From positions 32,001-96,000 of IMG/VR virus record IMGVR_UViG_3300031521_000011: DNA of 64,000 bases. One strand, written 5' to 3'. The translations under genes were made by a program, and so were the position numbers. Shown here in pieces: positions 913-47,200 of this stretch. The notes under the pieces are model-generated. The model ran no database searches. It saw only the letters and a list, made by a program, of their open reading frames with translations, and was not told the origin of the DNA. Positions within the stretch are counted from its first letter, which is position 1, and each line of letters starts with the position of its first letter. The stretch is from a virus.

Positions 913-918
913 TATCTC

Positions 919-1410
919 CTACATCATATTGAGCGCCGTCCATCTTTTCGATAAGTCCTCGTAAGAGATGTCATCTATGACATATGGCTTGAGCAGATCT
1001 ATCATGATATCCTTAACCTGCTCTGGCGTGTGCCAGTAATCGAATTTATTGCCTTTTTTCCTCACCAACCACATCAACCATTGATCGTGATCATCCTGAT
1101 CGATCACGAGCCTGCAGCCTTCAGGCAGGAGCTTATGGAAGGCCCTCAGCAGTTCATCATTACTGACAAAATGATCAGCCATCCACCACCCTATAAACTT
1201 ATAGGGCACATACTGATTATGCTTCACGAATGCATTGTTTAGTATAGGCTCAAGCTTCGCTGGGCTGAGAAGCCAATTCCCAGAAGGCTCATCATTGAGG
1301 TTAATTCCGAACCCCTTCCAATCCTGGTGTGGGTGCCGTGGTTCGATCTTAAAGACCTTGTTGAAGGTGTTCTTTACCCTCAATATGAAAAGCCTAATTG
1401 TTAGTTTCAT
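919..1410 (-). CDS. hypothetical protein
   Basis: 163-aa ORF with AAGGAAGGA RBS, packed in an operon. Confidence 0.7.
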   Translation of the reverse strand: MKLTIRLFILRVKNTFNKVFKIEPRHPHQDWKGFGINLNDEPSGNWLLSPAKLEPILNNAFVKHNQYVPYKFIGWWMADHFVSNDELLRAFHKLLPEGCRLVIDQDDHDQWLMWLVRKKGNKFDYWHTPEQVKDIMIDLLKPYVIDDISYEDLSKRWTALNMM

Positions 1411-1840
1411 GTTTATCCTTCCTTCCTTTTGAATATTGTTTATAGAGCTCCATTACCTTTATCATGGCCGGATGATCATCAGGTAGGTCAACGCTTTCCG
1501 CAACCTTGAAGAGAGCAATACTTGCCATGATGATCCTCACGCTCCAGAATATGACCATCAAGCTGGTGGGCTTGTAAATCATTCTGAACCATCCTCGAAC
1601 CATTGTGCACAAGTTGTTAAATATTACCCTCTGGATCTTTGGATCTTTAGAAGCCAATGACACTGCCATCATGCTCATAAGGAATTCCTGATTGAGCTTT
1701 ATTCTCCGAGCACCTTCTTTGCGCCCTTTTGATTCCAAATCAAGAGCGATCACTTTGATCGCATAGTCCAGGTCATCCAGGTGGCCTTGTTTCAAAAACC
1801 GAAGCTCTCTGTGGATTTCATAGTCTTCCAAGTCATTCAT
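1394..1840 (-). CDS. hypothetical protein
   Basis: 148-aa ORF with GGAGGGG RBS just downstream of the phage promoter motif. Confidence 0.75.
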   Translation of the reverse strand: MNDLEDYEIHRELRFLKQGHLDDLDYAIKVIALDLESKGRKEGARRIKLNQEFLMSMMAVSLASKDPKIQRVIFNNLCTMVRGWFRMIYKPTSLMVIFWSVRIIMASIALFKVAESVDLPDDHPAMIKVMELYKQYSKGRKDKHETNN

Positions 1841-4265: not shown

Positions 4266-4757
4266 TTATTTTATAAAGAACGCCAGCGCCAGCAGCGTCA
4301 GTTCATGGAGCCTGTGGTCGATGCCGATGTGCATGAACCAGAAGTGCGGATCTTCCTCAATCTGCTCTTTGGTCATGCCTTTTAGCTTCAGTATCCACTT
4401 CACAGGGATTCTGGTATCAATGAATGCATGTGTAACGAATAGATAGAGAAATATGAGGTAATAGTATGGAATCTGAATGATCAGCGTGTTCATAAGGAAC
4501 ATTGTAATAATGCTTGTAGCGCCGGCGTATATTAGGGAATGACTGACAAGGGCTAGAATACTATTCGATATAGATGGCATCTCCGTTTCAACTTTAAGGG
4601 CGCGGATCGGAAAACCAGGTCCTACCGGCCATTGAGTAATCTTCTTTCGAGGCCCCCAGAAACTCTTGTTGGCCGCCTGCCATTGATCCTGAAACACCCA
4701 ATCGACAAACGTGCCAATTATGAACGTGATGATGAAGAATTTGACATTGAGCTCCAT
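4266..4757 (-). CDS. DUF3307-like membrane protein
   Basis: DWVFQ..WQA.NK, HSLIY, THAFID and DHRLH motifs; several TM helices. Confidence 0.7.
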   Translation of the reverse strand: MELNVKFFIITFIIGTFVDWVFQDQWQAANKSFWGPRKKITQWPVGPGFPIRALKVETEMPSISNSILALVSHSLIYAGATSIITMFLMNTLIIQIPYYYLIFLYLFVTHAFIDTRIPVKWILKLKGMTKEQIEEDPHFWFMHIGIDHRLHELTLLALAFFIK

Positions 4758-5263
4758 TTAATCATTACCTCCAATACTTCATGTGTGACATAGTTTGCCA
4801 TGAAAGAGTGATCACGATGGGTGAATACTTCATTTGCCATCGTAGATGAAATCACTGGAAACCGTGACCTGATATACACTGTTTCCATGCTCGACCAGAG
4901 TTTCCGGTTTGCTTCAGCGAGGATTTCCTCCTGCATGAAGTCGTTGACATTGCGAATCCCGCGAACGAGGTAGTCAATGCGATCATCGTGAACGAGGCTA
5001 AAGTTGTGAGCGGCGTCAACAGTGAATTGCTTCGATTCTATGAAGATAATCCTATCTTCATAGTCATGGTGCAGAAACATATTCTTTGCGGCAGCCATCA
5101 TCTCGTGCATATTATACTTGCGCTGCTTGGTAGGATTGATGGCGAAAAGGACATACACCCTGTCGAACAGGTCCAGCGCCTGTTCGACAATATCTGTGTG
5201 TCCGTGGGTCCAGGGATCAAATGTGCCGGCGTAGATGGCATTACATATCCTTCTTTGGCTCAT
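4718..5263 (-). CDS. coaD: phosphopantetheine adenylyltransferase
   Basis: AIYAGTFDPWTHGH (HxGH), LVRGIRNVNDFMQE and ISST motifs; start at 5263 after GGAGG. Confidence 0.85.
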   Translation of the reverse strand: MSQRRICNAIYAGTFDPWTHGHTDIVEQALDLFDRVYVLFAINPTKQRKYNMHEMMAAAKNMFLHHDYEDRIIFIESKQFTVDAAHNFSLVHDDRIDYLVRGIRNVNDFMQEEILAEANRKLWSSMETVYIRSRFPVISSTMANEVFTHRDHSFMANYVTHEVLEVMIKWSSMSNSSSSRS

Positions 5264-5492
5264 TGGCATCCTCCGCCGGCGCTGCCGGCAACTCCTCATA
5301 CCTCTTCCCACATATCGGGCAGAAGGTGTGTAAGATGTGAAATGTCCTAGGCTTCTTCGCTCCGGGCATCGTAACACTTACATCTGAGAAGATCTTACCT
5401 GACAACAGCTCCATATTATCGAAGCTTACCTTTTCACAGCCAGGGAATTTCTCCCTGGTCTTACTGAGCATTTCCTTGATGCAGTTGCACAT
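5241..5492 (-). CDS. small Cys-rich (Zn-binding) protein
   Basis: MCNC...FCPICG. Confidence 0.65.
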   Translation of the reverse strand: MCNCIKEMLSKTREKFPGCEKVSFDNMELLSGKIFSDVSVTMPGAKKPRTFHILHTFCPICGKRYEELPAAPAEDANEPKKDM

Positions 5493-7691: not shown

Positions 7692-8032
7692 TACTCATCT
7701 TCCTCCAGCATTTCGATTTCAATCTCCTGCTCTTCGACTTCATCCCCGAAGCGACGGCAGTTCCATCCATCGACCACATCATTATCATCGATGCTCTCGC
7801 AGATATCAATAAGGTCACCGATTTCCCTAAAGATGTCCTCCATCTTTTCGGCCTCTTCATCAGTTAGAAATTTCATATCATCAATATGTGTGCCGGTGCC
7901 GTACAAGGCAGGATGAATTTTGTCGCTAGGTGTGGATTTTCTCCATCCCCATTCTGTATCATTTCCTCTAATATTGGCCTTAACGACAACTTTTTCCTCA
8001 TCAGCCTCTATGGTCATTGTGATTTTAGCCAT
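7691..8032 (-). CDS. hypothetical acidic protein
   Basis: 113-aa ORF, AAGGAG RBS. Confidence 0.7.
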   Translation of the reverse strand: MAKITMTIEADEEKVVVKANIRGNDTEWGWRKSTPSDKIHPALYGTGTHIDDMKFLTDEEAEKMEDIFREIGDLIDICESIDDNDVVDGWNCRRFGDEVEEQEIEIEMLEEDE

Positions 8033-8508
8033 TTTGTTTCTCCTTCATACACCACTTCACCATTGTTGAATTTAACATCAAAGTCTGGCCAGAATTTATT
8101 GAGCGCTATGAGTGTAGGTGGAAAAATATTGCCATCGGTAGTTGTCATAATTTGTGTTGGCGTCATCCAGGTTAACCCACGCATTTCTTTGTCATGATCT
8201 GTGAGATATACCTTATCCGGGGATGCGCCGGCGTTATATTTAAAGATGACGGATCGAACTGGCTGCATTATGCCATGAATCCTAGCAATGCATAAAATTG
8301 CTCCACAGAGCTCCATATCTTTTTCATAGATAATGATTCCGAATTCCTCACGCGCCTCACGAACTGCTGTCTCAAGAAAGGTCTCACCCGGGTCAACCTT
8401 GCCTCCAGCAATAGCCCATCCCTGCCCATCGCTTCTTTCACCCATAAGAATTTTACCACCGGAATGAACAATGATACCGGTGCCGCCTGTGTAAATTTTC
8501 TGTCTCAC
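8014..8508 (-). CDS. Nudix hydrolase
   Basis: Nudix box GGKVDPGETFLETAVREAREEFG. Confidence 0.9.
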   Translation of the reverse strand: MRQKIYTGGTGIIVHSGGKILMGERSDGQGWAIAGGKVDPGETFLETAVREAREEFGIIIYEKDMELCGAILCIARIHGIMQPVRSVIFKYNAGASPDKVYLTDHDKEMRGLTWMTPTQIMTTTDGNIFPPTLIALNKFWPDFDVKFNNGEVVYEGETKWLKSQ

Positions 8509-18616: not shown

Positions 18617-19093
18617 CTACGCCTCCGCAGGTGTTGGGTCTCCGGCGATGTGCACATCAATCAGGATGTATTCCATAGGCTTTACGGGAGTGACTTGTCG
18701 ACTCACAATAAAGTACGCATCGCTCTTCCATTTGATTACATCGACGACGGACGTTCCGCCGTATATTTCATACCGGATGGTTATGACTGACGAGGAAAGC
18801 TCCTCGTCAGTCACCTCTGGCACTTGATCATTGTAAAAAAGTCGCAGGGCAACTCTTCTTGCATTGATATCGGGCATTGATTTTTTCCTCCATTGATCTG
18901 CAGTATATTCAACCAAAAGGGGTACACCGATCAGATCATCTATGTAGGTATGTGGGCAGAAGTCCTTCCATTTGATTCCTTCAGACTCCGCCCAGATTTT
19001 GAGTAACTCGAGAGCCTGGTCCGATTCGGCATCTTCGTGCGCAACCATGACGATACACAGTTGTCGAATCCAGAGTTTGAACAGTGGGTTCAT
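18617..19093 (-). CDS. hypothetical protein
   Basis: 158-aa ORF with ATGA overlap with the ligase stop. Confidence 0.65.
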   Translation of the reverse strand: MNPLFKLWIRQLCIVMVAHEDAESDQALELLKIWAESEGIKWKDFCPHTYIDDLIGVPLLVEYTADQWRKKSMPDINARRVALRLFYNDQVPEVTDEELSSSVITIRYEIYGGTSVVDVIKWKSDAYFIVSRQVTPVKPMEYILIDVHIAGDPTPAEA

Positions 19094-21102
19094 TTTATCA
19101 TCTCCAGGAAGTCTGCCTGAGAGATACAGGGGATTCCCAAAGAAACCGCCTTCTCCTGCTTGCTCCCGGCGTTTTCACCCACCAGCACAAACGACGTCTT
19201 CGCCGATACGCTGCCGGATACCTTACCACCATTCTTCTCAACCAGCTCTTCAGCCTCCTTGCGCCCAAGCGTCGGGAGCGTACCGGTCACAACAACAGTT
19301 TTACCTTTAAGAACGCCGTCAGCAACGAGTACTTCATCCTTCGGGCGCACGCCGGCGGCATACATCATGTTGAGCGCATCGATATTCGTCGGGTTATCGA
19401 AGAAGTCCCTGATGGACGTCGCTACGATGTCCCCGATATCCTGAATGCTCATCAGCTCATCATAGGTGGCCTTGAAGACATTGTCAAATGTGCCAAACCT
19501 CTTGGCAAGCCGTTTTGCAGTTCCCTCTCCGGAGTTGGGCATGCCCAGCGCATAAATGAAGTGCTTGAGGTCCGGATTTTTCGCAGCTTCGATTGCCGCC
19601 AGCAACTTCTCAACCTTCCGCACACCCACCCCTGCAAGCTGACACATTTCATCCTTGTAGGTATGCAGATAGAAGATCGAATCGATGCCCTTCAGCATGC
19701 CGGCATTGAACAACAATTTGATCGTTTGCTCACTGAGGCCGTCGATATCAAGGCAATCCTTGGATGCCAGGTGTGTCATCGCACCGACGATTTGCGGAGG
19801 ACAGCTCAGTGTATTGCTGCAGAATATATGCGCACCAAACTCAATAACTGCAGCTCCGCAGGCCGGGCAGACGACAGGAACAATTACATTCCTCTCAACA
19901 TTAGAATCGATGCCGGCATCATTCGGTGCGGAACCCATGATCTCGGGGATGACGTCGTTGCTACGGCGGATCCACACCCGTCCATTGATCTTTACTTGCT
20001 TTCTCTCAACGTCGCCAGCGTTGTTAAGCGTCGCCCGGCGGATGGTTGCGCCACCAATATCAATCGGGTCCACTTCGGCGACAGGTGTCAGCTTGCCTGT
20101 GTGGCCGACTTCCCATACAACATCGCGTATCGTGGTGATAAGCTCTTCAGCCTCGAACTTCCAAGCGATGGCCCACCGGGGATACCTGTTTGTCCACCCA
20201 AGAACATCGCGCGTGGGGAAGTCGATAACCTTGATAACGGCTCCGTCGATGAGATAATCCAGACCACTCCTCTGTTTTTGCAGTCCATCAATTTCCTCGA
20301 TGATTTGCTCGATGCTACCGGTGGCCTTTAGGAAGCGGTTGGTGGGGAATTTGTTCCAGCGCAGGAACTCCATCATGTCCATATGGCCGTTCATTACGCC
20401 GCCGGTTGGGCTCATGGCATTCGGGAGGTCAATGTAGTTGACGTTATAGAAGAACGCCCTGATCCCCCGGGCGGCCGTTTCTTTAGGGTTGAGATTGCGA
20501 ATCGCGCCGGCCACGGCGTTCCGTGCATTCTTCAATTGCGACTCTGACTTGGCGTTATATGCGGCCAGCGCTGACAATGGCATATACGCCTCTCCCTGAG
20601 CCTCTAGGAGCCCTTTGTACGGTATCGAAAGAGGAACCGTCTTAATGGTCTTGACCTGCTCCAGAACGCACTCTCCGGTCTCGCCGTCGCCCCTGGTGGT
20701 AGCCTGAATGAGATTGCCCTCATTGTATGTGAGATTGATTGTCAACCCATCGAACTTCATCTCAAGAGCATACTGAACCTTTGGAAGATTGTACTCCACT
20801 GCAGTGGCTTCAATCTTGGCAGCCCATGAGCGCAGGTCATCAATCGTCCGGACCTTATCAAGGCTATAGAGCGGTGCGAGATGTTTGTGCTGCTGGAACC
20901 CTGTCAGTGTAGCGCCGCCCACACGCTGGGTCGGTGAGTTCGGAAGGAAGTAGCCAAGTTCGGCTTCCATTTTCAGGAGGTCATCGAATTTCTTGTCATA
21001 CTCTGCATCCGACACTCTTGGCTCGTCGAGCACATAGTACCGATACGCCAGGTCATTGAGTTCATCGACGAGTAGTGCCATTGCCTCTGCCATTGGTTTC
21101 AT
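19090..21102 (-). CDS. ligA: NAD-dependent DNA ligase
   Basis: YYVLDEP.VSDAEYD, KFDG adenylation motif, TRGDG, PRWAIAWKF, Zn finger, HhH, C-terminal BRCT. Confidence 0.97.
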   Translation of the reverse strand: MKPMAEAMALLVDELNDLAYRYYVLDEPRVSDAEYDKKFDDLLKMEAELGYFLPNSPTQRVGGATLTGFQQHKHLAPLYSLDKVRTIDDLRSWAAKIEATAVEYNLPKVQYALEMKFDGLTINLTYNEGNLIQATTRGDGETGECVLEQVKTIKTVPLSIPYKGLLEAQGEAYMPLSALAAYNAKSESQLKNARNAVAGAIRNLNPKETAARGIRAFFYNVNYIDLPNAMSPTGGVMNGHMDMMEFLRWNKFPTNRFLKATGSIEQIIEEIDGLQKQRSGLDYLIDGAVIKVIDFPTRDVLGWTNRYPRWAIAWKFEAEELITTIRDVVWEVGHTGKLTPVAEVDPIDIGGATIRRATLNNAGDVERKQVKINGRVWIRRSNDVIPEIMGSAPNDAGIDSNVERNVIVPVVCPACGAAVIEFGAHIFCSNTLSCPPQIVGAMTHLASKDCLDIDGLSEQTIKLLFNAGMLKGIDSIFYLHTYKDEMCQLAGVGVRKVEKLLAAIEAAKNPDLKHFIYALGMPNSGEGTAKRLAKRFGTFDNVFKATYDELMSIQDIGDIVATSIRDFFDNPTNIDALNMMYAAGVRPKDEVLVADGVLKGKTVVVTGTLPTLGRKEAEELVEKNGGKVSGSVSAKTSFVLVGENAGSKQEKAVSLGIPCISQADFLEMIK

Positions 21103-21488
21103 TGTTGTTCCTCCTCAATTTTACATCCAGCAGCTTTCATAATGCGAAGCCACTTTTCTTCAGTAGTATGACCATCCCAGTTGGACTTTTCCATCTTGCG
21201 AAGATTTCCGAGATCAAAACTGTCCGGGATATGGAATGTTATCTCTCCGCCATTCAGACTTATAACCCTTAACCATCCGGCCCACGATGGATCATCGGCA
21301 TGGTCTTCATCGTAGTACCAACCTGGGCGCGCCGAGTCATCTGCTGGCCTGCAGCATTCATCCGCCCATAGGTTTGCTTCAACAGCCATTGCCAATGCCA
21401 ACATATTTCTTTCCCAATAAGCGAGGTCTAGGGCTTGTTTGGCGCTTAGATCCTTATTCCAGGTCGTTATTACTTTTGGAATTTTCAT
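21099..21488 (-). CDS. conserved phage hypothetical protein
   Basis: 129 aa; AAGGAGGG RBS abutting the promoter motif. Confidence 0.7.
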   Translation of the reverse strand: MKIPKVITTWNKDLSAKQALDLAYWERNMLALAMAVEANLWADECCRPADDSARPGWYYDEDHADDPSWAGWLRVISLNGGEITFHIPDSFDLGNLRKMEKSNWDGHTTEEKWLRIMKAAGCKIEEEQQ

Positions 21489-21521: not shown

Positions 21522-22076
21522 TTACTCTTTCTCGCTGTCAAGATATTCATTGCAGTCTTTTGGCAGCACGCAGATAGTGGCTTCAGGAGCATTTTCTTCA
21601 ATGAGTTTACGGACGATTTTCCAATCTCCTCCGGCCAGCCCGCAGCCAAGCCTGAAAGGTAAATAGAGAGGGAGGTCCAACTTGCGGGAAAGCTCCGCTA
21701 CAGTGCGAAGACATTTCGTCAATGCATCATAATCTGTCGCCACGCCAGACTGTGCGAATACACTCACTCCGGAATCCAGGTCAATTACTACATTGTCTTC
21801 GACCATCTTATTAAGAATTTTCTTAAAGTCAGTGATTCCATCCTGCGCTGCCATGTTGGCGATACAAAGATCGTTTTCAACAGCGACTGTGAGTACTACG
21901 CCGAGCTTTAAATCACCGCTCTCATAAAACTGATGATACTGCTCATATGCGTATGGGTACATTCTGCGGATCTGCAGCGCCAGGCCACCGCCCATGACGC
22001 CGATACAGTTAACCTGATGGCCAATGATTCCTCTTTTGTTGTCGAGGATGTTTCTTATTACAACATGGTTTTTCAT
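21522..22076 (-). CDS. macrodomain (ADP-ribose binding/hydrolase) protein
   Basis: IGHQVNCIGVMGGGLALQI, TDYDAL and PFRLGCGLAGGDW motifs. Confidence 0.9.
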   Translation of the reverse strand: MKNHVVIRNILDNKRGIIGHQVNCIGVMGGGLALQIRRMYPYAYEQYHQFYESGDLKLGVVLTVAVENDLCIANMAAQDGITDFKKILNKMVEDNVVIDLDSGVSVFAQSGVATDYDALTKCLRTVAELSRKLDLPLYLPFRLGCGLAGGDWKIVRKLIEENAPEATICVLPKDCNEYLDSEKE

Positions 22077-22126
22077 CTTTCCTCCTAAAAAATAAGGGCC
22101 CCTGGCGGGGCCCTGGAATGCAGGTG

Positions 22127-22741
22127 TTACAGTTGCTGTGTCTGCCGCTCAATGACATCCTTACGGATATCGTCGAACTGCTTGCAGTTGAGAGCGAAAT
22201 TATCTTCAGAGAGAATGACGTAATCCGACATGGATGGAGGAATAAACTCCTCATTCTCCACAGCATTGATGAGGCGTTCGATAGCCAGTCGATGCCTGAT
22301 ATGCTCACATGACATACTGCGAGACTTGTCTGCCAACATGTGCCTAAGACAAGTCTCGGCTGAAGCATAGAGGAATATTCTGACAATCATGCACTCTTTG
22401 GAATTGAATACTTGTTTCATTGCCGCTGCCCCTACCCGCTCCATCACGATGCAAATTTCGTCATGCTGCTGGAGTTTTTCTTCAACTTCATTTTTGGATG
22501 TGCCATACATGTAGTTGTTGTAAGGAGCTGTTTCTACAAAAAGTTCTTGTCTTTCCATGAGATCAAAAGCATAATTCCCCTTAACAAAATGATAGTTAAC
22601 CCCGTCAACTTCACCCAGGCGCATCGGGCGAGACGTATGACTGATCAGCTCGCCCATGCCATATGTAGGCTTGATATATTCATTTACCAGTGTGGTCTTG
22701 CCGGATCCAGATGGACCCACAATGATGTAGATTGTCTTCAT
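22127..22741 (-). CDS. gmk: guanylate kinase
   Basis: GPSGSGKTT, SHTSRPMRLGEVDGVNYHFV and YGT motifs. Confidence 0.9.
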   Translation of the reverse strand: MKTIYIIVGPSGSGKTTLVNEYIKPTYGMGELISHTSRPMRLGEVDGVNYHFVKGNYAFDLMERQELFVETAPYNNYMYGTSKNEVEEKLQQHDEICIVMERVGAAAMKQVFNSKECMIVRIFLYASAETCLRHMLADKSRSMSCEHIRHRLAIERLINAVENEEFIPPSMSDYVILSEDNFALNCKQFDDIRKDVIERQTQQL

Positions 22742-23172
22742 TTACTTACCCTCTCAAATATATTCCCACAGGTATAACACTCACAAAAATTTGGTTGATT
22801 AGCTACTGCTCCGCAAAGTTCCTCATTACAGACAGGGCATGGAGGAAAGTTTACTTTCCTTAGTTTACCCCGGCCGGCAGCCAGTTTAAACATTGCCGTT
22901 ACAGGTGGAGCATAATATGGAATGAAATGCCTTTTTTTGGTTCGCTTTTTGTCATATCGAGGTTCTGCTTTTTCATATCCCTCAACAAGATATCTGGCGC
23001 CCGGTGTTGGTTTAGGATTATACTTGTCTTGGTGTCTAAACCATGACAGGCCAAGCCTATCTATCACATCTTTGGGTTTTTCTCCAGGCTGGATAACGCA
23101 AATTACTTTGCCTTCCATTTTGGTTCTATGACTTCTAGATATCCATGTGACGGCTTGGCCTATAATATCCAT
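22738..23172 (-). CDS. hypothetical protein with C-terminal Zn ribbon
   Basis: CPVC...CYTC. Confidence 0.65.
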   Translation of the reverse strand: MDIIGQAVTWISRSHRTKMEGKVICVIQPGEKPKDVIDRLGLSWFRHQDKYNPKPTPGARYLVEGYEKAEPRYDKKRTKKRHFIPYYAPPVTAMFKLAAGRGKLRKVNFPPCPVCNEELCGAVANQPNFCECYTCGNIFERVSK

Positions 23173-23177
23173 GTATA

Positions 23178-23438
23178 TTACTCCTCTATCAGGAATCGTT
23201 CTCTGAAAACCGGATTCAATGTATCAATACATAAGTTGAGGACATTGATAAACTGTGCTTCATCCTTATCGATCAAGTTCCTCGTAATCGATGCAATGGC
23301 GTCATGGCCAGCCCAGTCGAGCTGAAGGGCCTTTTCTTCACTTAAGCCGAGAAGCAGATCAAGGGTAACAATAACGCATAGCCTGCCTTCTTCATTTTCC
23401 TTAAAAAGCCTCATTACCTCACTGAACAAACTATTCAT
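23178..23438 (-). CDS. hypothetical protein
   Basis: start MNSLF after GGAGG. Confidence 0.6.
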   Translation of the reverse strand: MNSLFSEVMRLFKENEEGRLCVIVTLDLLLGLSEEKALQLDWAGHDAIASITRNLIDKDEAQFINVLNLCIDTLNPVFRERFLIEE

Positions 23439-23439
23439 G

Positions 23440-23736
23440 TCAGTCCTCCGGCATGATAAGCATAATCGTTGATCCGTTATCAATTGCCTCAAAGGCCATA
23501 TCTCCATATATTACGCTTTGATGATAACAAGCTCCTTCTGGACTGTCAACCCGCTCTTGAATCAAGCTAACAATTTTAGTTACGAATGATACCATCGATT
23601 CTCCTTCCAGTAAAGGAGTCATCGTGTTGGTGAAATTGTCAGAGAGGGTAATTCCTGATTGATATCGAATAGGGTCAAAGTCTGCGGTTTTGCAGCCCCC
23701 TTCCTGTGGCTTTAGGCGTAGTTCAGGCATGGTCAA
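23440..23736 (-). CDS. hypothetical protein
   Basis: 98-aa ORF in an operon. Confidence 0.6.
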   Translation of the reverse strand: MTMPELRLKPQEGGCKTADFDPIRYQSGITLSDNFTNTMTPLLEGESMVSFVTKIVSLIQERVDSPEGACYHQSVIYGDMAFEAIDNGSTIMLIMPED

Positions 23737-24104
23737 TCCCTTTCTTCATATTGTAATTTTTCTCCGCATCTGATTGCTCCAAAGTGAGTGTTTAGGTATT
23801 TTGAGAGGAGATGCCTGTGGCAGAATTGTCCAGGTATACAATAACAGGCAAGATGATATGTTGCCTCTTTATCTGGAAAAACCTCTTCAAAGATACCCAT
23901 GGTGAGAGCCCTATTGAGAATGTCAAAATATCTTTTCTCATATTCATCTGCCGTAATTTTCCCCTTCTTTACCTTGTTCACCATGTCCCAGGTAGGGGAC
24001 AGTGTCCGTGCATGTCCAGATGCACTCGCTGCCGTGATATCAATTACATTAGGTAGATTCAAGATGTTGGCAACCGATATTTGGACCGTGTAAACTTTCA
24101 TCAT
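23733..24104 (-). CDS. DUF488-like protein
   Basis: LSPTWDM, YEKRY and LACYC..GQFCHRHLL motifs. Confidence 0.7.
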   Translation of the reverse strand: MMKVYTVQISVANILNLPNVIDITAASASGHARTLSPTWDMVNKVKKGKITADEYEKRYFDILNRALTMGIFEEVFPDKEATYHLACYCIPGQFCHRHLLSKYLNTHFGAIRCGEKLQYEERD

Positions 24105-24134
24105 TACTCCTTTCATGTCAAAAAATAACAATAA

Positions 24135-24161
24135 GTGCTGACAGCAAAAAGCTGTCAGCAC
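24135..24161 (-). terminator. hairpin/terminator after the PARP gene, lying just downstream of a phage promoter
   Basis: GTGCTGACAGC/GCTGTCAGCAC 11-bp stem with a T-rich tail. Confidence 0.65.
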
Positions 24162-24168
24162 TACATAC

Positions 24169-24183
24169 TTTTATTACTTATAC
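24169..24183 (-). promoter_or_regulatory. phage promoter GTATAAGTAATAAAA
   Basis: exact consensus. Confidence 0.75.
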
Positions 24184-24187
24184 CAGA

Positions 24188-25555
24188 TTATCTGTTGGTG
24201 GAGGCAAATTCGATGATATATCGAATAGCTTGCTGACCGCTATCATATACGATGAATTCATTGTGCAATAGACTGCTTCCTGCAACTCCCTTGACACTAT
24301 CAAATCCGGAAGGCGCCTTGAGATGGTAAACGGAGTTTCGCTCCTCTTTGATCCTTCCGCAGGCGACGTCGGCGACGAATAGGAAGGCAGTGGGATGGGC
24401 ATTTTGACGACCACCGAAGCGGCTGCACGCATACTGGGTAGATTTAGTCGATTGATCAGCGAAATAGATTCCAGGTCCAAACATTGCTCCAGTGATATAC
24501 ACCCCCGACAATTGTGTTGGGAGCTTAAGGAAAGAGGAGAGAATCCCGGGCAGGTTGGCCGTTCTTGAGCCATGAAAAAGTTCTTTGACATTACCAATTC
24601 CCTCCTTGAATGCCGGCGCACGCTTCTGCTTTACGCCGAACATATTGACAGCGCTTAGCTTGACGGAGTGATGGTTGCTCTGGGAGTTGATCATATAGTC
24701 CTCCAGATGCCGCCATAGACCTGAACCACGTGGAATCGCCCAAAGATCACTATACAAGGAATCGTAGCGTTTGTCGATATCGTCGCTGACGATGACATCC
24801 TCCATGCGCAGGGAGTCCTCATAAAATTTCAACAGATCAAGCTCCATGCTGATTTTGTCATCATTACCGATGAGGACATCTTCCAGACTTATTTTCCTGC
24901 TGCCGAACGAGCGGGGAATAATGCGGCGATACTGCTCCGATAAACTCTGAATCATTGGAGCATCATGTATCTTGATGGACTTCGCAATCTCCTCAAGCGC
25001 TGCCCGGCCCATGCCGATTTGTTTATTACTGAGCTTACCAAGCGGAGCTTTCTGGTCTAGTGTGGCCTGACCATTAATGAATGAAGAAAGGGCTGCTCCG
25101 CTTTCATCGAAGATGTGTTGCACGAACTTCCGGACCTCAGGCTCAAGATTGCTCCGGTTTTCTGCTTTAATGGTAGTTGGGGCAGCAATGACTTCATTGG
25201 CGTCAATCATCTTCTGGGCTTCGGCGCTGCCAGTGGAACTCTGTGCCAGCTCGATCTCCACGTATCCCTTCTTGGTCTTTTCATGGACGATTGCACTGAA
25301 TTCCGAGCGAGCCAGACTTGCAGAGATGCCAGAGTTGCCACGCACCTGTTTTGTGGACGTTACCCCAAGCCTTCCGTATTCAGAGAAAATCCTATAGACA
25401 CCATTAGCTCCCTCATGAAGTTCAATGGTGTAGTATTTGTTCGAGTTTACGCCCACCTCAAAGAAGTTTAAGGTCTTTTTATCCACGACCTTATAGGACG
25501 AGAATGGGCTCCCCACATCCAAGTGAGGAGCCCAGTTAAGTGCGCTTAGTCCCAT
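24188..25555 (-). CDS. PARP-family ADP-ribosyltransferase (WGR + regulatory + catalytic domains)
   Basis: WGR-like KYY.IEL...YGRLG...KTKKGY; PLGKLS regulatory motif; H-Y-E triad in LFHGSR / GAMFGPGIYFA..STKS.QY / HNEFIVYD. Confidence 0.92.
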   Translation of the reverse strand: MGLSALNWAPHLDVGSPFSSYKVVDKKTLNFFEVGVNSNKYYTIELHEGANGVYRIFSEYGRLGVTSTKQVRGNSGISASLARSEFSAIVHEKTKKGYVEIELAQSSTGSAEAQKMIDANEVIAAPTTIKAENRSNLEPEVRKFVQHIFDESGAALSSFINGQATLDQKAPLGKLSNKQIGMGRAALEEIAKSIKIHDAPMIQSLSEQYRRIIPRSFGSRKISLEDVLIGNDDKISMELDLLKFYEDSLRMEDVIVSDDIDKRYDSLYSDLWAIPRGSGLWRHLEDYMINSQSNHHSVKLSAVNMFGVKQKRAPAFKEGIGNVKELFHGSRTANLPGILSSFLKLPTQLSGVYITGAMFGPGIYFADQSTKSTQYACSRFGGRQNAHPTAFLFVADVACGRIKEERNSVYHLKAPSGFDSVKGVAGSSLLHNEFIVYDSGQQAIRYIIEFASTNR

Positions 25556-25556
25556 G

Positions 25557-26330
25557 TTAGCCTCCAAATCCATCCTTTACAGAGTGAGGGCCGTCGATGC
25601 CGAGGAAGGTTGCTTCGGTGATTGGGGTAAGTGGTGCCGCGCAGGTATCGATTTCTACTGCAGTGACAGAGGGCGCTGTAAGGGCGGGCACAGGGCAATC
25701 CACAATCTTCTTGTAGAGTACATTCTCCCGATAGCGCCGCGCTTCCTTCTGAAGTATCTTGTAGAACAAGATTTCCTTACCAAGCTCTACGTCCTGCACG
25801 TTGTTGGCTTGGCACCTTATCTTCCTGATATGGAGCTTGCCATCGAATCCGTAGTATTTTGCTACGGTAACAGGACCACTTGTGAAATATTCGACAATCG
25901 GAAGAGCAGCCATCAGTATTTGTACGTTCTGATATTTCTTCGGGATCTCAATCTGTGTGCCGCCCATTGGGACAACATGCTGAGCAGCCCTAAATTCCGG
26001 CTTGATGTCGGGTAATTCTTTTTCAATGATCTCGTATTGGGCAGGATTCTGATATCTTATGGAGCGGCTGCCGGCCTGACGAATGATGCCAATGTCGCCA
26101 GTTTCCTCAACTTGCGCGAGCAAGTACTCACAATCGGGCTCAAGGAGGTCGGCGCGTTCAACGCCCTTGCATCCCGTTATCTTGATAGAGTCGTCCTGGA
26201 AGTCTTTAGGGGACAGAATCAACACGGTTCTGTTTTTGAGCCATCTGTTGAGATCAAAGCCACCTGCGTCAATGACTTTGGCTTTGTCGCCGGGGACCAG
26301 CTTCTGAATGTCGAGTGTAGTGTCGCACAT
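25557..26330 (-). CDS. hypothetical protein
   Basis: 257-aa ORF, AAAGGAG RBS. Confidence 0.7.
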   Translation of the reverse strand: MCDTTLDIQKLVPGDKAKVIDAGGFDLNRWLKNRTVLILSPKDFQDDSIKITGCKGVERADLLEPDCEYLLAQVEETGDIGIIRQAGSRSIRYQNPAQYEIIEKELPDIKPEFRAAQHVVPMGGTQIEIPKKYQNVQILMAALPIVEYFTSGPVTVAKYYGFDGKLHIRKIRCQANNVQDVELGKEILFYKILQKEARRYRENVLYKKIVDCPVPALTAPSVTAVEIDTCAAPLTPITEATFLGIDGPHSVKDGFGG

Positions 26331-26503: not shown

Positions 26504-26557
26504 GAACTGAGTAAAAAGCATTATACCACAAAACAATCCACAGTTGGAGGAGTTAAA

Positions 26558-27757: not shown

Positions 27758-29236
27758 GTGCAAACAATGAATTACACATATAGAGACGCTTTGATGGATT
27801 TAGAGAAACTTGAGTCAACATTGCTTACTGAGGAATTTGAGAAATTCGCAGAAGAGATGATGGAAAAAGAAGCTCTGCCACTTGGCGCTATTTGGAGTGG
27901 CCTCAAGGCTTTTGGAACTGGCGCAGGTCAAATATTGCGCGGTGCCGGCAGATCTGTCGCTCCTGCATTGAAGGGTGTTGGTTCAGCACTTTCAAAAGGT
28001 GTAGGCGCAAAGACCCTTGCAGAAGGTGTTGATGGCGCCAAAGGTTTGAAGAGTTCGCTTGGCGAACTTGGTAAGACAGTAAAGGGCCAGGCCTCCGGCG
28101 TCGCAGATAAGATGAAGGACCTTGGAACTCAGACTAAGAAGTTCATGAATCCTCCAAAACCGGTTGCGCCAACTCCTCCAAGTACGGCGCTGGCTACTAT
28201 TCCGAAAGAGAAGGGATTTACTACCCCGGATGGAGTGAATACCCAATCCAACACGGCGGCGGGAAGAAATGCTGGAAAGCCCAAAACTGGTCTCGCTACA
28301 ACACCGAAACCAAATACAGACTTCACCACCCCAGGCGGAGTAAATACCCATTCTGATACAGCAGCCGGAAGACGGGCTGGTTCTGGACTTCCTGCGCAAA
28401 GACCAGAAAGTGAATGGCTCATGAATACAATGATACCTAAAGAGCAAGCTGCTGGTGCAGCCGGCGCTGTCAAGAAGAAGATGCCTGAATGGGTGGTCCC
28501 CGGTGCGGTTGGTGTCGGCGCGGGTGCATTGGGTATGCATGCATACGACAATAATCAGGCGGATAAGGCTGCAAGCGATGTTTCTTGCACAGACATGCTT
28601 GGTTATATGGATGTTTTGGCGGCCTCATTATCTGAAGAAGATTTTGAGAAAATTTCTCAGGAGATTATGGAAAAGAACGCCAATGTGCTTATCAATATGG
28701 GAAAAGCCATTGGTCGGAGTGCTGAATCAGCCGGTGCTCGCAAAGCAATAGGCGCAACCCTTAAACAGGACGTTAAAGCTGCAAAAGGAACTTTTAAGGC
28801 TGGCGTTAAAGACCTGAAAGATAAGGCCAAGCTGGATAAAGGCAATGTCGGAAAACCCGCCCCCGCAGCAGCCCCGGCAGCGGCAGCTACACCAACTCCC
28901 GCAGCGGCCCCGGCAGCAGCACCGGCAGCGGCTCCACAGTCTTTAGCGACTCCAGCCCCGGCGGCCGGCGCAACCGGCGCGGCCCCGGCAGCACCTGGAA
29001 AGAAGCCAAAGAAACCTGCCTCCTTTACCGACAAGGTAAAAGCATTCGGAACAGGTGCAGGCGTAGGCGCACTCGGCGTAGGTGTTGGATCGCAGTTTAT
29101 AGGGAAGAAGCCTGATGAGCAGCAATCGGTGTATGCATGTGCCGACATCCTTCATGATTTCGATAAGGTTTCTGTTGATTTAAGTGAAGAGGACGTAGAG
29201 ACTCTTGCAAAAGAAATCCTGCGTGATATCATGTAA
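27758..29236 (+). CDS. putative virion polyprotein (three acidic repeats alternating with cationic Gly/Ala-rich segments)
   Basis: repeats ..EEFEKFAEEMMEKEA, ..LSEEDFEKISQEIMEKNA and ..LSEEDVETLAKEIL. Confidence 0.7.
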   Translation: MQTMNYTYRDALMDLEKLESTLLTEEFEKFAEEMMEKEALPLGAIWSGLKAFGTGAGQILRGAGRSVAPALKGVGSALSKGVGAKTLAEGVDGAKGLKSSLGELGKTVKGQASGVADKMKDLGTQTKKFMNPPKPVAPTPPSTALATIPKEKGFTTPDGVNTQSNTAAGRNAGKPKTGLATTPKPNTDFTTPGGVNTHSDTAAGRRAGSGLPAQRPESEWLMNTMIPKEQAAGAAGAVKKKMPEWVVPGAVGVGAGALGMHAYDNNQADKAASDVSCTDMLGYMDVLAASLSEEDFEKISQEIMEKNANVLINMGKAIGRSAESAGARKAIGATLKQDVKAAKGTFKAGVKDLKDKAKLDKGNVGKPAPAAAPAAAATPTPAAAPAAAPAAAPQSLATPAPAAGATGAAPAAPGKKPKKPASFTDKVKAFGTGAGVGALGVGVGSQFIGKKPDEQQSVYACADILHDFDKVSVDLSEEDVETLAKEILRDIM

Positions 29237-44253: not shown

Positions 44254-47200
44254 ATGAATGAACAAGACAGAATAAGGCTGGACCGCGAAGCTTCTGAGAT
44301 GGAGTCCAAGGTCTTGGCGCTCGTCAAATCGAAGTTTCCAATGAAGCTTCAGGGCGGAATTCTGAATGTATCCGACCTGAAGATTGAGCGCCCGGCTGGT
44401 CTGTTTAATCTCACAGCTCAACATAATCTCAAGATGGACGACGGAAGCCTATACGGTGCTCTCCGTGGTCGCTTCAACTTGAGCAATGACAAGGGAAAAG
44501 TGATAAAGCAGACAAATGTGCAAGATATCATCAGCACAATTCCATACAAAACAGTCCGTGGCAGTTACATTGCCGGTGGAAATGAGCGCACAATCTCAGC
44601 TCAGATGCGCCAGGCACCCGGTATTTACACAGAGCGCAATGGAACTGAGGTCATAACCAAGATACGGTTTAATGCAACGAGTGAGTTATGGACCTCACCG
44701 ATCATGATGCATTATGATCAGTCGAAGTCCAAGTTCTTTCTGCGCTTTAAAATCGGAAATAAAACGCTCGATCTGAGCGGCATAACTTTCCTTACTGACA
44801 TCGCTGGCGCATCTATCGGTGAGGTCAAGAAAGCGCTTGGCTCCGAGGCGGTCTATATCGATGTTATGCAGAAGCATCCAACATTCAACGCTACGCTGGC
44901 TGATGTTTATGCCTTATATTTCAAGGATGAGAAGTATGACGGAACAGCCGAGCAGGTTGTGAAACTGCGCGACAGGATCATGGAGCAACCCAACTTTGGC
45001 AACTCTGGCGAAAAAAGAGTCGGAGCTACAGTCGGTGTTGCCTCCAATAAACTTGATAAAAATGTTGTATTGGCTTCAATCACTAAGCTATTTGCCGTAG
45101 CAAGAAATGATGCAGAAGAAGATTCTATCGACGATCTTCGCTTCAAGATCGTACTCAATGACCAGGACTTCATCCTGGGAGAACTGAGCGAAGGCATCGA
45201 CGAGTTTAAGAACAAGGTAAACTTCAGGAGCGGCGCAGACAACGAATTGAAGTTCATCGTTGCTTCTCCGCTTGATAATCTGGACAAGAAGATTGACAGG
45301 TTCATCAAAGCCGATACTAGAAATGCCCCTCAGTCCACCGGTATCGTGGAGGCCCCGGAGACAACAAACCCATTGAATCTGATTTCCTCCACGAAAAAGA
45401 TCACACAAAAGGGCGAGGGTGGCATCTCTGACGAGGCAGCCCGGAACGCTGACAGCGCCAGAAACCTTCAGCCCACTGCCATTACCCGCATCGACCCAGT
45501 TGAATCTCCTGAATCTCAGAAGATTGGATTGGTCCGCCAGCTCGCGCGAAACGCACGGGCTACGAATGGCACAATCGTATCGAAATTCTTTCCAGTAAAA
45601 AAGGGAACTGCCAACATTGATGAAGAGAATATTGTAGAGCTTGATCCGTTTGAGGAATATGACCATCATGTGGCTTTCTATACGCCATCTGAGATCACCA
45701 AGATCAATAACATGATTGCGTTTAAGAAGCCTCTGGTGACAGGCCGATTCAATGGAAAAGTTATGCAAATTCCGAGGGAAGAGATTGAGTATATCGATAC
45801 TTCCCCGAGTGACATCTTTGGCATCTCTGCTGCCCTGGTTCCGTTCGGTGACCACAACGACGGTAACCGTATGTTGATGGCCACAAATCAGCAAAAGCAA
45901 TCTCTGCTGCTGAAGAGCTCAGTGCGCCAGGCTCCCTATGTCCAGGTAGCCATAGATCAAGACAAGAAACAAACATTTGAAGGCCAAATTGGCGAAAACT
46001 CAAACGTTGTGCGTTCTCCTGAGAACGGCGTCGTTGAGTCAGTCGATGGCGGCCATATTGTAATTAAGGGCGAAAGCGGCAAAAGACATTCGCTTGATTA
46101 CTATGACCACTTTCCGATGAACCAGGATAATTTCGCTCATAACGAAGTTCTAGTGAAGCGCGGGGACGAGGTAAAGGCCGGCCAAATGGTGGCTGAAGGA
46201 TGGCACACTAAGGATGGCAAGCTTGCCCTTGGTCTCAATGCCCGTATCGCATATCTACCATATAAGGGTTGGAACTATGAAGACGGCGTGGTTATAAGCC
46301 GCGAATTCGCCGACAGGGTTCAGACTGATGAAATGGAATCCCGCGACATCATAGTATACAAGGATTTCATTGGCGGCCCAGGGAGCGGAGTCAGGGATAA
46401 ATTCATAGAAACTACAGCACAAAGCGCCGGCATGCAGAAGTTGGATAAGGATGGAATCATTATGCCTGGGCAAGAAGTTGGCCCCGGAGACATCCTTGTT
46501 GCCATGCTGAAGCCTAAGGCTCCGGACTATGACGCAATGCGTTCATTCTCCAAGATGATCATGAAGGGCGACGAAACCGAGTTTGAGGATGCCGCACAAA
46601 AAATCGGTGATGGCGAGTACATGCAGGGTAAAGTACTCGATGTACATGTGCTGCCCGGCGGCGGAGATCCCGATGTAAGAAATATAATCCGCATCCGTGT
46701 GAAAATGTCAAAGACACTCAAAATCGGAGATAAAATTTCTGGCCGTCACGGAAACAAAGGAACTATTACCAAAATACTTGGAACGAAGGAAATGCCTCAC
46801 ACTGAAGACGGGCGCTCAATTGACGTCCTGTTTTCTCCGCTGGTTGTTCCTTCTCGTAAAAATGTTGGCCAGCTTCTGGAAGTCAATGCTGGCTTAATTG
46901 CTGAGAAGACAGGTAAGCCATACACTGTTTACAATTTCGATCCAAAAGAAGTGGACAATGTCAAAAACGGGCTTATCAAAATCGGAGTACCAGACGGCAA
47001 AATGGCAGTAATCGATCCTAAAACTGGCAAGGCCTACGAGAACAAAGTCACTGTCGGAAATATGTATATACTGAAACTAAAGCACAAGGTTGATGAAAAA
47101 TTACAATCTCGCTCTTTTGAAGAAGGCGGATTCAACCAGAAATACCTGTCTCCAGAGAAATCCACCGGAGAGGCTGCAGGTGAAAAGGCCAACCCACAGC

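What the first reader, a model, noticed from the sequence alone, without database searches (positions are those of the whole stretch)
21522..25555. Phage PARP (WGR-regulatory-catalytic, H-Y-E) linked to a macrodomain: an ADP-ribosylation write/erase circuit
Seen: a PARP1/2-like domain order with an intact H-Y-E triad, a DUF488-like gene next to it, a macrodomain about 2 kb downstream, an NAD-dependent ligase after that, and a Nudix gene at 8014. Established: WGR domains sense DNA breaks and relieve the autoinhibitory helical domain; macrodomains remove ADP-ribose; characterised phage ARTs (T4 Alt, ModA, ModB) are R-S-E mono-ARTs, not PARPs. Inference: DNA-end-activated ADP-ribosylation for repair, shielding of phage DNA ends or host takeover, with a cognate eraser. 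The macrodomain may also counter DarT-type defence.
Basis: partly seen in the sequence, partly recalled or inferred. Interest (0 to 1): 0.75.

Follow-up and report, generated by a model that had tools for sequence, protein, structure and literature searches.

The report
Phage PARP with macrodomain and ligase
A 168-kb phage carries a complete PARP1-like, DNA-break-sensing ADP-ribosyl transferase in the same gene string as an ADP-ribose-removing macrodomain and a DNA ligase, a trio that recurs in other phages and in bacteria and points to an untested DNA-nick handling circuit.

Summary
Window 24188-25555(-) encodes a WGR / helical-regulatory / catalytic PARP. H334, Y370 and E439 are invariant in 51 homologues. 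The model has pLDDT 89 and matches DNA-bound PARP1 at TM 0.74. Downstream on the same strand lie a DUF488-N3a gene, guanylate kinase, a macrodomain of the SCO6735/DarG/TARG1 (ALC1-like) class, and NAD-dependent LigA. Nudix is at 8014.

It is not a new kind of thing. Phage PARPs are annotated in GenBank (15 records) and discussed in surveys from 2014 to 2024, one of which proposes phage PARP plus LigA repair. I found no experimental work on a phage PARP.

On a tree of 155 PARPs, an ADP-ribose hydrolase lies within 10 kb in 71 rows: this macro type, a MacroD-like macro, or ARH. A DNA ligase, NAD- or ATP-dependent, lies within 10 kb in 46 rows. Both traits arose many times. Examples include ARH-LigA fusions and a second, PARP-linked LigA in 5 of 5 cellular genomes.

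The link is not obligatory. 69 of the 80 closest viral macros lack a nearby PARP, and 5 of 10 complete PARP phages without an adjacent macro lack this macro altogether.

Best reading (about 0.5): break-activated ADP-ribosylation, reversed by the macro and coupled to ligation. An anti-DarT role for the macro remains open.

The parts
26520..26528 (-). Extended -10-like element (TGGTATAAT) upstream of the first gene of the leftward gene string
   Evidence: Read directly from the sequence. The consensus scan did not list it because no good -35 is present. Low weight.
25557..26330 (-). 257-aa protein of no known family. It is the first gene of the string and ends 1-2 bases before the PARP start.
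   Evidence: ORF list. No Pfam, PHROG, PADLOC or NCBIfam match. Not found next to other PARPs.
24188..25555 (-). PARP: WGR domain, helical regulatory domain and ART catalytic domain with H334, Y370 and E439
24134..24162 (-). Perfect 12-bp hairpin followed by a T-rich tail, between the PARP stop codon and the DUF488 ribosome-binding site. Terminator- or attenuator-like.
   Evidence: There is no room for a promoter after it, so downstream genes need read-through (inference).
23733..24101 (-). DUF488-N3a protein (122 aa) of the rhodanese-phosphatase-like superfamily
   Evidence: One Atlas cluster fuses this domain to NADAR.
22738..23736 (-). Three small ORFs (98, 109 and 144 aa) of no known family. 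The 144-aa ORF ends in a CxxC...CxxC motif.
   Evidence: It is not shown that they are real genes.
22127..22741 (-). Guanylate kinase-like P-loop kinase
   Evidence: Pfam Guanylate_kin E 4.9e-21; phrog_1815 E 4.1e-35.
22095..22114 (-). GC-rich 8-bp hairpin plus TATTTTTT, directly before the macro ribosome-binding site. Terminator- or attenuator-like.
21522..22076 (-). Macrodomain of the ALC1-like class (BT1257/SCO6735/DarG/TARG1). It has Gln78 at the position of SCO6735 Gln85, followed by an insertion of about 26 residues.
   Evidence: It is the only macro match in the 168-kb genome.
21099..21488 (-). 129-aa phage protein (phrog_16023; weak WDGH-domain match). Its stop overlaps the LigA start.
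19090..21102 (-). NAD-dependent DNA ligase LigA with OB, zinc-finger, HhH and BRCT domains
8014..8508 (-). Nudix hydrolase
4718..5377 (-). Cytidylyltransferase-like nucleotidyltransferase. The best match is CoaD; the NMNAT match is weaker.
   Evidence: Pfam CTP_transf_like E 2.6e-14. NCBIfam CoaD 110.5 bits against a cut-off of 103.3, with NMNAT models far below their cut-offs. phrog_3462 NMNAT E 9.3e-7.

Best explanation
The gene at 24188-25555(-) is a genuine PARP1/2/3-type enzyme. A WGR domain recognises DNA nicks or ends. This releases the autoinhibitory helical domain, and the H-Y-E catalytic domain then transfers ADP-ribose from NAD+.

The gene sits in a leftward string of DNA-metabolism genes of a 168-kb phage. 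The phage's affinities are with Bacillota: its terminase relatives are mostly Bacillus phages, and its closest PARP relatives are in Bacillales.

My reading is that it works on the phage's own replicating or damaged DNA. It binds a break and modifies itself, a partner or the DNA end. The ALC1-like macrodomain downstream strips the ADP-ribose, and LigA seals the nick. The phage's own NAD+ supply genes, NAMPT and possibly a nucleotidyltransferase and Nudix, pay for both NAD+-consuming steps.

Shown here: the domain architecture, catalytic residues, folds, gene order, and the recurrence of PARP with a hydrolase and a ligase in other genomes.

Inferred: DNA-dependent activation, the substrate (protein or DNA end), mono- versus poly-ADP-ribosylation, reversal by this macro, and any coupling to ligation.
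For: Identity. In the alignment the query's TKS and TQY lie on PARP1's SKS and ANY, and K377, S378 and Y381 are invariant. G67 and R68 of the WGR motif (YGR in this protein) are also invariant. Bacterial enzymes with the same three domains (C. difficile, H. aurantiacus) show DNA-dependent automodification (PMC5966428, passages).

Context in this phage:
- The genes from 26330 down to 19090 are tightly packed on one strand.
- The macro is the only recognisable ADP-ribose hydrolase in the genome. There is one macro match, no ARH and no PARG match (but its control did not ring).

Recurrence of hydrolases:
- Of 72 viral PARP loci, 29 have this macro type within 10 kb.
- Of 80 macro-anchored viral loci, 11 have a PARP, forming two further lineages. 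These include an adjacent ATP-ligase, macro, PARP string (L193).
- A Planctomycetota genome has LigA-PARP-x-PARP-Macro (L119).
- A MacroD-like macro directly follows PARP in 16 rows of a Myxococcota/Planctomycetota clade, and ARH lies nearby in 21 rows.
- Overall, 71 of 155 PARP rows have a hydrolase and 46 of 155 have a ligase within 10 kb. These patterns need at least 18 and 16 changes on the PARP tree.

Recurrence of ligases:
- Four Myxococcota-type genomes carry an ARH-LigA fusion about 7 kb from PARP.
- The PARP-linked LigA is a second copy in 5 of 5 cellular genomes tested.
- An archaeal MAG has only the PARP-linked LigA.
- PARP-linked LigAs are not one clade, needing at least 4 changes, so the pairing arose repeatedly.
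- None of the 80 macro-anchored viral loci, 69 of them without a PARP, has a LigA within 10 kb.

Cultured examples: Klebsiella phage vB_KpM_FBKp34 has this macro 2.4 kb upstream of its PARP. Cellulophaga phage phi4:1 has PARP, one ORF, then an ATP-dependent ligase.
Against: - No activity was measured.
- The link is not obligatory. Of the 80 closest viral macros, 69 have no PARP within 10 kb. Of 26 PARP viral records without an adjacent macro, 11 have the macro tens of kb away and 15 have none. Among those at least 90% complete the split is 5 and 5.
- The two closest PARP relatives (Aneurinibacillus plasmid and Bacillus sp., 52-53% identity) have neither a macro nor a ligase within 10 kb.
- About 29 of the viral loci that carry PARP, macro and LigA belong to one syntenic clade and count as one event.
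- Across the PARP tree, presence of a ligase does not follow presence of a hydrolase. The independent-pairs test gives a median p of 0.625, with too few informative pairs.
- Two terminator-like hairpins separate PARP from the macro.
- The phage LigA is its only ligase seen and may simply be the replicative ligase. It groups with Bacillota LigAs, not with other PARP-linked ones.
- In the large phage clade the macro sits next to NADAR, which fits DNA-base de-ADP-ribosylation as counter-defence equally well.
- ORFs were called crudely (stop-to-stop), and hydrolases of other families were not searched.
Confidence: 0.5

Rival explanations
1. The macrodomain is a stand-alone counter-defence enzyme that removes host-made ADP-ribose from phage DNA (DarT-type toxins) or degrades ADP-ribose-derived signals. 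PARP has an unrelated job. They lie close because phages gather NAD+/ADP-ribose genes in early-gene islands.
For: - SCO6735, the closest characterised relative, cleaves thymidine-linked ADP-ribose on DNA and rescues cells from DarT. Its essential Gln85 (PMC9411070, passages) corresponds to the invariant Gln78 here.
- The macro's N-terminal part matches DarG models: PADLOC E 1.4e-15 and NCBIfam E 3.9e-14.
- The family occurs in 414 GenBank phage records against 15 with PARP. 69 of the 80 closest viral relatives lack a nearby PARP.
- In the large phage clade the macro is followed by NADAR. DUF488-N3a is fused to NADAR in one Atlas cluster.
- The genome also carries a Tad2-like anti-Thoeris gene and NAMPT, so it invests in NAD-centred counter-defence.
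- Terminator-like hairpins separate the macro from PARP.
Against: - PARP-hydrolase adjacency recurs with three unrelated hydrolase types, and in cellular genomes where anti-phage-defence logic does not apply.
- ARH fused to LigA next to PARP is hard to explain by counter-defence.
- Both roles could hold at once, since SCO6735 also acts on proteins.
Confidence: 0.25
2. PARP is a host-takeover effector. Like T4 Alt/ModA/ModB, but with PARP chemistry, it modifies host proteins (RNA polymerase, nucleoid or repair proteins) early in infection. The macro limits collateral modification of phage proteins.
For: - Surveys of phage ARTs propose this for phage PARPs (PMC7824862 passages; PMC9503650 section 27 read in full).
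- The gene lies in a non-structural, probably early or middle gene string headed by a sigma-A-like -10 element.
Against: - The WGR and helical regulatory domains are retained and conserved. That argues for DNA-break control rather than constitutive effector activity.
- The recurrent ligase neighbours, second LigA copies and ARH-LigA fusions point to DNA ends.
- The same architecture is chromosomal in many bacteria.
- It is not in a head-packaging context.
Confidence: 0.15
3. The proximity of PARP, macro and ligase in this phage is coincidental gene order among DNA-metabolism genes and has no functional coupling.
For: - Five unrelated genes and two hairpins lie between PARP and the macro.
- The closest PARP relatives lack both neighbours.
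- LigA is a common gene of large phages (PMC9503650 passages).
- The independent-pairs test is not significant.
Against: Repeated independent associations, with non-orthologous replacement of both hydrolase and ligase, occur across phages, bacteria and an archaeal MAG.
Confidence: 0.1

Closest known systems
Human PARP1/PARP2/PARP3 (clade 1 PARPs), C-terminal WGR-HD-ART module
   Same: - Same three domains in the same order.
- Same H-Y-E triad and the TKS/TQY motifs on PARP1's SKS/ANY.
- The model superposes on DNA-bound PARP1 and PARP2 at TM 0.70-0.74.
   Different: - About 25% identity.
- No zinc fingers and no BRCT domain; only about 30 residues precede the WGR domain.
- The WGR motif reads YGR.
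- About 27 residues of PARP1 between the strand ending in KG and the strand carrying the catalytic Glu are absent (alignment).
- His replaces the Tyr just before the catalytic Glu (HNEF versus YNEY).
- Phage-encoded. Partners such as HPF1 and XRCC1 are not expected.
Bacterial PARPs (Clostridioides difficile CdPARP, Herpetosiphon aurantiacus HaPARP)
   Same: Stand-alone WGR-PARP_reg-PARP_cat proteins of about 420-470 aa. Tyr at the first WGR position is typical of bacterial forms. DNA-dependent auto-poly-ADP-ribosylation has been shown for both (PMC5966428 passages).
   Different: Those sequences were not aligned to this protein here. The closest named relatives found are Aneurinibacillus (53%) and Bacillus sp. 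M6-12 (52%) proteins. Their biological role is also unknown.
Annotated phage PARPs (Klebsiella phage vB_KpM_FBKp34, Xanthomonas phages XacN1 and Xoo-sp13, Stenotrophomonas phages, Cellulophaga phage phi4:1)
   Same: Phage-encoded PARPs, most covering 90% or more of this protein. FBKp34 has the same macro family 2.4 kb upstream. phi4:1 has a ligase two genes downstream.
   Different: Only 24-27% identity over the full-length matches (the short catalytic-domain matches reach 31-44%). The hosts differ, and the ligase in phi4:1 is ATP-dependent. None was found to be experimentally characterised in my searches.
SCO6735 / BT1257 subclass of ALC1-like macrodomains (with DarG and TARG1)
   Same: - Best sequence and fold matches.
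- The conserved Gln lies at the position of SCO6735 Gln85.
- C-terminal GCGLAGGDW motif.
   Different: - An insertion of about 26 residues follows the Gln, where SCO6735 has its DNA-clamping mobile loop.
- No C-terminal DarT-binding domain.
- No DarT was found in the genome (but its control did not ring).
- The Pfam Macro score is just under the cut-off.
T4 Alt / ModA / ModB
   Same: Phage-encoded NAD+-dependent ADP-ribosyl transferases.
   Different: Those belong to the R-S-E clade, are mono-ARTs, and have no WGR or helical domain (family knowledge; PMC9503650 section 27). This protein is H-Y-E.

Membership tests
Clade-1 PARP (PARP1/2/3-like) | WGR domain N-terminal to the catalytic region | tested here: met
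   Pfam WGR E 5e-12, 46.2 bits against 22. G67 and R68 are invariant. The fold matches the PARP1 WGR on DNA.
Clade-1 PARP (PARP1/2/3-like) | Helical regulatory (PARP_reg/HD) domain | tested here: met
   Pfam PARP_reg E 1.5e-13, 51.4 bits against 26.8. Helices at 145-272 in the model.
Clade-1 PARP (PARP1/2/3-like) | ART fold with the H-Y-E triad | tested here: met
   Pfam PARP E 3.1e-24. H334, Y370 and E439 align to the PARP1 motifs and are invariant in 51 sequences.
Clade-1 PARP (PARP1/2/3-like) | DNA-break-dependent activation, and poly- versus mono-ADP-ribosylation | not testable with these tools
   Needs enzyme assays. It has been shown only for bacterial relatives (PMC5966428).
ALC1-like macrodomain hydrolase (TARG1/DarG/SCO6735) | Macro fold closest to this class | tested here: met
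   Foldseek top hits are 2fg1, 2afc, 5m3i, 5m3e, 5e3b and 4j5q. phmmer gives E 8.5e-16 to 2fg1. Pfam Macro scores 21.3 bits against a cut-off of 22, so that cut-off is not met.
ALC1-like macrodomain hydrolase (TARG1/DarG/SCO6735) | Residue at the catalytic position (Lys in TARG1 and DarG, Gln85 in SCO6735) | tested here: met
   Gln78 aligns with the SCO6735 Gln and is invariant in A2 and A3. This is the SCO6735 type, not the Lys type. The equivalence to the Lys comes from PMC9411070.
DarG antitoxin (DarTG system) | C-terminal DarT-binding domain and an adjacent DarT gene | tested here: not met
   The protein has 184 aa. The NCBIfam DarG equivalog scores 52.7 bits against a cut-off of 250 and covers only model positions 7-64. 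No DarT match was found in the genome, but the control genomes did not ring either.
DUF488-N3a (Pfam PF22751) | Score above the curated cut-off | tested here: met
   31.6 bits against 27. Atlas structure neighbours have TM 0.70-0.83 by query.
NAD-dependent DNA ligase LigA | Full LigA domain set and an equivalog score | tested here: met
   NF005932 scores 696 bits against 369. Pfam finds the adenylation, OB, zinc-finger (below cut-off), HhH and BRCT domains.
Phage NAD+ salvage pathway (NAMPT plus NMNAT/Nudix type; name recalled, from no call) | NAMPT plus an NMN adenylyltransferase | tested here: inconclusive
   NAMPT is clear: G000 235-1761, NF006629, 537.7 bits against 405; Pfam NAPRTase plus NAMPT_N. 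The nucleotidyltransferase at window 4718-5377 scores as CoaD, not NMNAT.

The most novel reading that the evidence does not exclude
PARP, an ADP-ribose hydrolase and a DNA ligase form an old, mobile three-part nick-handling cassette shared by phages, bacteria and some archaea. PARP marks a break, either by modifying itself or by capping the DNA end with ADP-ribose. The hydrolase (macro or ARH, sometimes fused to the ligase) licenses the end, and the dedicated ligase seals it. This would be the prokaryotic and viral counterpart, perhaps the source, of eukaryotic PARP-dependent single-strand-break repair. In phages it would double as end protection against host nucleases.
Probability: 0.3. Interest if true: 0.8.

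Novelty: new member of a known kind. Interest (0 to 1): 0.55.

Why it matters
The role of PARPs outside eukaryotes is an open question. Bacterial enzymes have been shown to be active in vitro, but no function is known, and I found no experiment on any phage PARP.

This locus adds a well-preserved phage example. More usefully, the comparison around it gives a concrete and testable hypothesis: writer, eraser and ligase work on the same DNA breaks. It also names cultured systems in which to test it, namely Cellulophaga phage phi4:1 and Klebsiella phage vB_KpM_FBKp34.

If the macro instead proves to be an anti-DarT enzyme, that would be a new phage counter-defence.

Tried and rejected
- Nucleotide search of the locus against GenBank phages: no match.
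- Single-protein locus searches found only 2 viral and 16 metagenome relatives. An alignment query was needed.
- Homologue search for the DUF488 protein returned only itself. Its PDB sequence search gave nothing meaningful.
- The conserved ~180-aa PARP neighbour of other phages (cluster c1) was sought in the window and is absent; the best hit has E 0.088.
- Neither c1 nor the macro HMM matched the ORF between PARP and the ligase in phi4:1.
- The idea that PARP-linked ligases form one family was rejected by the LigA tree, which needs at least 4 changes.
- The test for correlated presence of ligase and hydrolase along the PARP tree was not significant.
- 'NMNAT' for window 4718-5377 was downgraded to a CoaD-like nucleotidyltransferase.
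- The DarT and PARG family searches of the genome found nothing, but their controls did not ring, so they are uninformative.
- One literature query failed on syntax, and one paper (PMC6126934) is not held.
- Searches for a paper defining DUF488-N3 found none.
- No complex prediction or read mapping was run. I claim no protein-protein binding.

Full report
**What the window is.** The window is bases 32001-96000 of a 168,244-bp virus record that CheckV rates as complete. It carries a large terminase subunit, a portal protein, a helicase and a 2296-aa RNA-polymerase-like protein. The rest of the genome has a PolIII-alpha polymerase, tail and baseplate genes, an amidase endolysin, NAMPT and a Tad2-like gene. 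Terminase relatives are mostly Bacillus phages at about 25% identity. The closest PARP relatives are in Aneurinibacillus and Bacillus. A Bacillota host is therefore likely, by inference.

**The observation.** The minus strand from 26330 to about 17800 is a tight string of genes:
- a 257-aa unknown protein
- PARP
- DUF488-N3a
- three small unknown ORFs
- guanylate kinase
- the macrodomain
- a phrog_16023 protein
- LigA
- two unknown ORFs
- DUF4031

*PARP.* The protein has WGR, PARP_reg and PARP catalytic domains, all above Pfam's cut-offs. It matches human PARP1 WGR-HD-ART at E 2.8e-36. The alignment places H334, Y370 and E439 on the PARP1 triad motifs. K377, S378 and Y381 fall on PARP1's SKS...Y motif (PARP1 residue numbers are recalled, not from a call). 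All of these residues, together with G67 and R68 of the WGR motif, are invariant in 51 homologues. The AlphaFold model (pLDDT 89.4) superposes on DNA-bound PARP1 and PARP2. Compared with PARP1, the protein lacks about 27 residues before the strand that carries the catalytic Glu.

*Macrodomain.* It is just under Pfam's cut-off but is clearly a macrodomain by sequence and fold. Its nearest neighbours are BT1257, SCO6735, DarG, Poa1p and TARG1.

*Other genes.* DUF488-N3a, LigA and Nudix are confirmed.

**What is already known.** Phage PARPs are not new as sequences.
- tblastn finds 15 GenBank phage records, several annotated as poly(ADP-ribose) polymerase.
- Perina et al. 2014 list PARPs in Aeromonas phage Aeh1 and Cellulophaga phage phi4:1 (PMC4245714, passages).
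- Iyer et al. 2021 and 2022 note PARP/PART among the commonest viral ARTs (PMC7824862 passages; PMC9503650 section 27 read in full, other passages).
- A 2024 paper on gut jumbo phages draws PARP and LigA together as phage DNA repair (PMC11662467 passages).
- Bacterial three-domain PARPs show DNA-dependent automodification (PMC5966428 passages).

My searches turned up no experiment on a phage PARP. In the passages I read, I did not see a description of a PARP-hydrolase-ligase neighbourhood. Supplements were not opened.

**Is the macro linked to PARP?** I fetched four sets of loci: 70 distinct viral PARP loci, 16 metagenome loci, 77 genome loci and 80 viral loci anchored on the macro.

*Evidence for a link.*
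- Of 72 viral loci held (two contigs were fetched twice), 29 have this macro type and 28 have LigA within 10 kb.
- About 29 of these belong to one syntenic phage clade, so they count as one event. Its gene order is LigA, metallophosphatase, Dam methylase, PARP, sometimes a DenV-like glycosylase, macro, NADAR, and further on a SLOG domain.
- Other lineages also pair the two genes: L020, L011, L073, L095 (Armatimonadota), the L193 group (adjacent ATP-dependent ligase, macro, PARP) and the L208 group.
- On a FastTree tree of 155 PARPs, this macro is present in 40 rows and needs at least 8 changes. From 175 loci with a PARP hit, 17 hits under 330 aa and 3 duplicates were dropped before the tree was built.
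- Searching for other hydrolases added a MacroD-like macro directly after PARP in 16 rows and ARH near PARP in 21 rows. Any hydrolase is present in 71 of 155 rows, needing at least 18 changes.

*Evidence against an obligatory link.*
- Of the 80 closest viral macros, 69 have no PARP nearby.
- The macro family occurs in 414 GenBank phage records.
- Of 29 PARP viral records searched whole, 14 have the macro.
- Of the 26 records without an adjacent macro, 11 carry it tens of kb away and 15 lack it. Those at least 90% complete split 5 and 5.

**The ligase.** LigA or an ATP-dependent ligase lies within 10 kb of PARP in 46 of 155 rows, needing at least 16 changes. Ten of the 77 cellular loci have LigA nearby. 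They include:
- an archaeal MAG whose only LigA is the PARP-linked one
- Kofleriaceae, with LigA divergently adjacent to PARP
- Syntrophomonas, with LigA, BRCT, FEN and thymidine kinase upstream of PARP in what looks like a mobile element
- four Myxococcota-type genomes with a 1056-1069-aa ARH-LigA fusion

In 5 of 5 cellular genomes tested, the PARP-linked LigA is a second copy. On a LigA tree the PARP-linked ligases fall in at least four places. The Kofleriaceae ligases group with the large phage clade, as their PARPs do, and the ARH-LigA fusions sit beside Myxococcota housekeeping LigA. The pairing was therefore assembled repeatedly.

As a rough control, none of the 80 macro-anchored viral loci, 69 of which lack a PARP, has a LigA within 10 kb. 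The independent-pairs test for ligase tracking hydrolase is not significant.

The window's own LigA groups with Bacillota ligases. It is the only ligase I saw in the phage, so it may be the replicative ligase as well.

**Transcription.** A perfect 12-bp hairpin with a T-rich tail follows the PARP stop codon. A GC-rich hairpin plus TATTTTTT precedes the macro. Each is followed at once by a ribosome-binding site, which leaves no room for a promoter. The downstream genes therefore probably depend on read-through, meaning attenuation rather than separate units. This is an inference.

**What the macro may do.** Its closest characterised relative, SCO6735, removes DarT-made thymidine-ADP-ribose from DNA and also acts on proteins. 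It needs Gln85 for this (PMC9411070 passages). The phage macro has the matching, invariant Gln78, followed by an insertion of about 26 residues where SCO6735 has its DNA-clamping loop.

It is not a DarG equivalog, and no DarT was found, although that search had a weak control. It is the only ADP-ribose hydrolase recognised in the genome.

The macro could therefore erase the PARP product, undo host DNA ADP-ribosylation, or do both. From memory, not from a call: PARP2 and PARP3 can ADP-ribosylate DNA end phosphates, and TARG1-type macros reverse this. That would fit a writer-eraser-ligase order.

**Verdict.** The enzyme identification is secure. The functional reading is break-activated ADP-ribosylation, reversed by the macro and feeding into ligation. 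It is the best supported at about 0.5. The rivals are a counter-defence role for the macro (0.25), host takeover (0.15) and coincidental gene order (0.1). The locus is a new member of a known kind. The recurring three-part neighbourhood is the part worth following up.

Noticed in passing
window 44254-51144 (+): A single 2296-aa ORF matches several phage RNA-polymerase beta/beta'-like PHROGs (phrog_25354 E 2e-122, phrog_24349 E 6.7e-97). It sits right after the portal gene and may be a giant fused, possibly virion-associated, RNA polymerase.
   Followed up: no
G000 235-1761 (-) and G000 164997-165335 (-), outside the window: The phage encodes a NAMPT-type phosphoribosyltransferase (537.7 bits against a cut-off of 405) and a Tad2-like anti-Thoeris protein (Pfam E 1.9e-11). 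It therefore both makes NAD+ and counters NAD-based defence.
   Followed up: partly
L009:11283-11906, L030:13605-14138 and 40 other viral loci: An unannotated ~180-aa protein (cluster c1; at most a weak MazE/AbrB-like match) follows PARP in 42 of 72 viral loci across several lineages. It is the most frequent PARP neighbour in phages, yet it is absent from this window.
   Followed up: partly
L163:18183-21350; also L148, L155, L164: ADP-ribosylglycohydrolase (ARH) is fused to a full NAD-dependent DNA ligase (1056-1069 aa) about 7 kb from a PARP-macro pair in Myxococcota-type genomes. Each genome tested also has a normal LigA.
   Followed up: partly
L013-L071 (about 29 viral loci): One clade of large phages keeps an ADP-ribose gene island: LigA, metallophosphatase, Dam methylase, PARP, DenV-like glycosylase, macro, NADAR, c1, metallophosphatase, SLOG (YpsA) and GNAT.
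   Followed up: partly
L089 and L143 (Aneurinibacillus sp. plasmid, 721 kb): The megaplasmid carries two different PARPs (53% and 33% identical to the phage one) and a second LigA copy about 400 kb from the nearer PARP. A UvrD helicase lies upstream of the closer PARP homologue.
   Followed up: no
window 27758-29236 (+): A 492-aa Ala/Pro/Gly-rich low-complexity protein with internally repeated segments and no family match lies between the PARP gene string and the terminase region.
   Followed up: no
G000 128230-130572 (+): A radical-SAM-like protein is interrupted by an intein with a LAGLIDADG domain.
   Followed up: no
window 23733-24101 (-): The DUF488-N3a protein matches a PADLOC candidate-defence model (PDC-M45C, E 1.2e-8). 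The PARP WGR domain matches the PADLOC model 'WGR_XIII' (E 9.2e-9).
   Followed up: no
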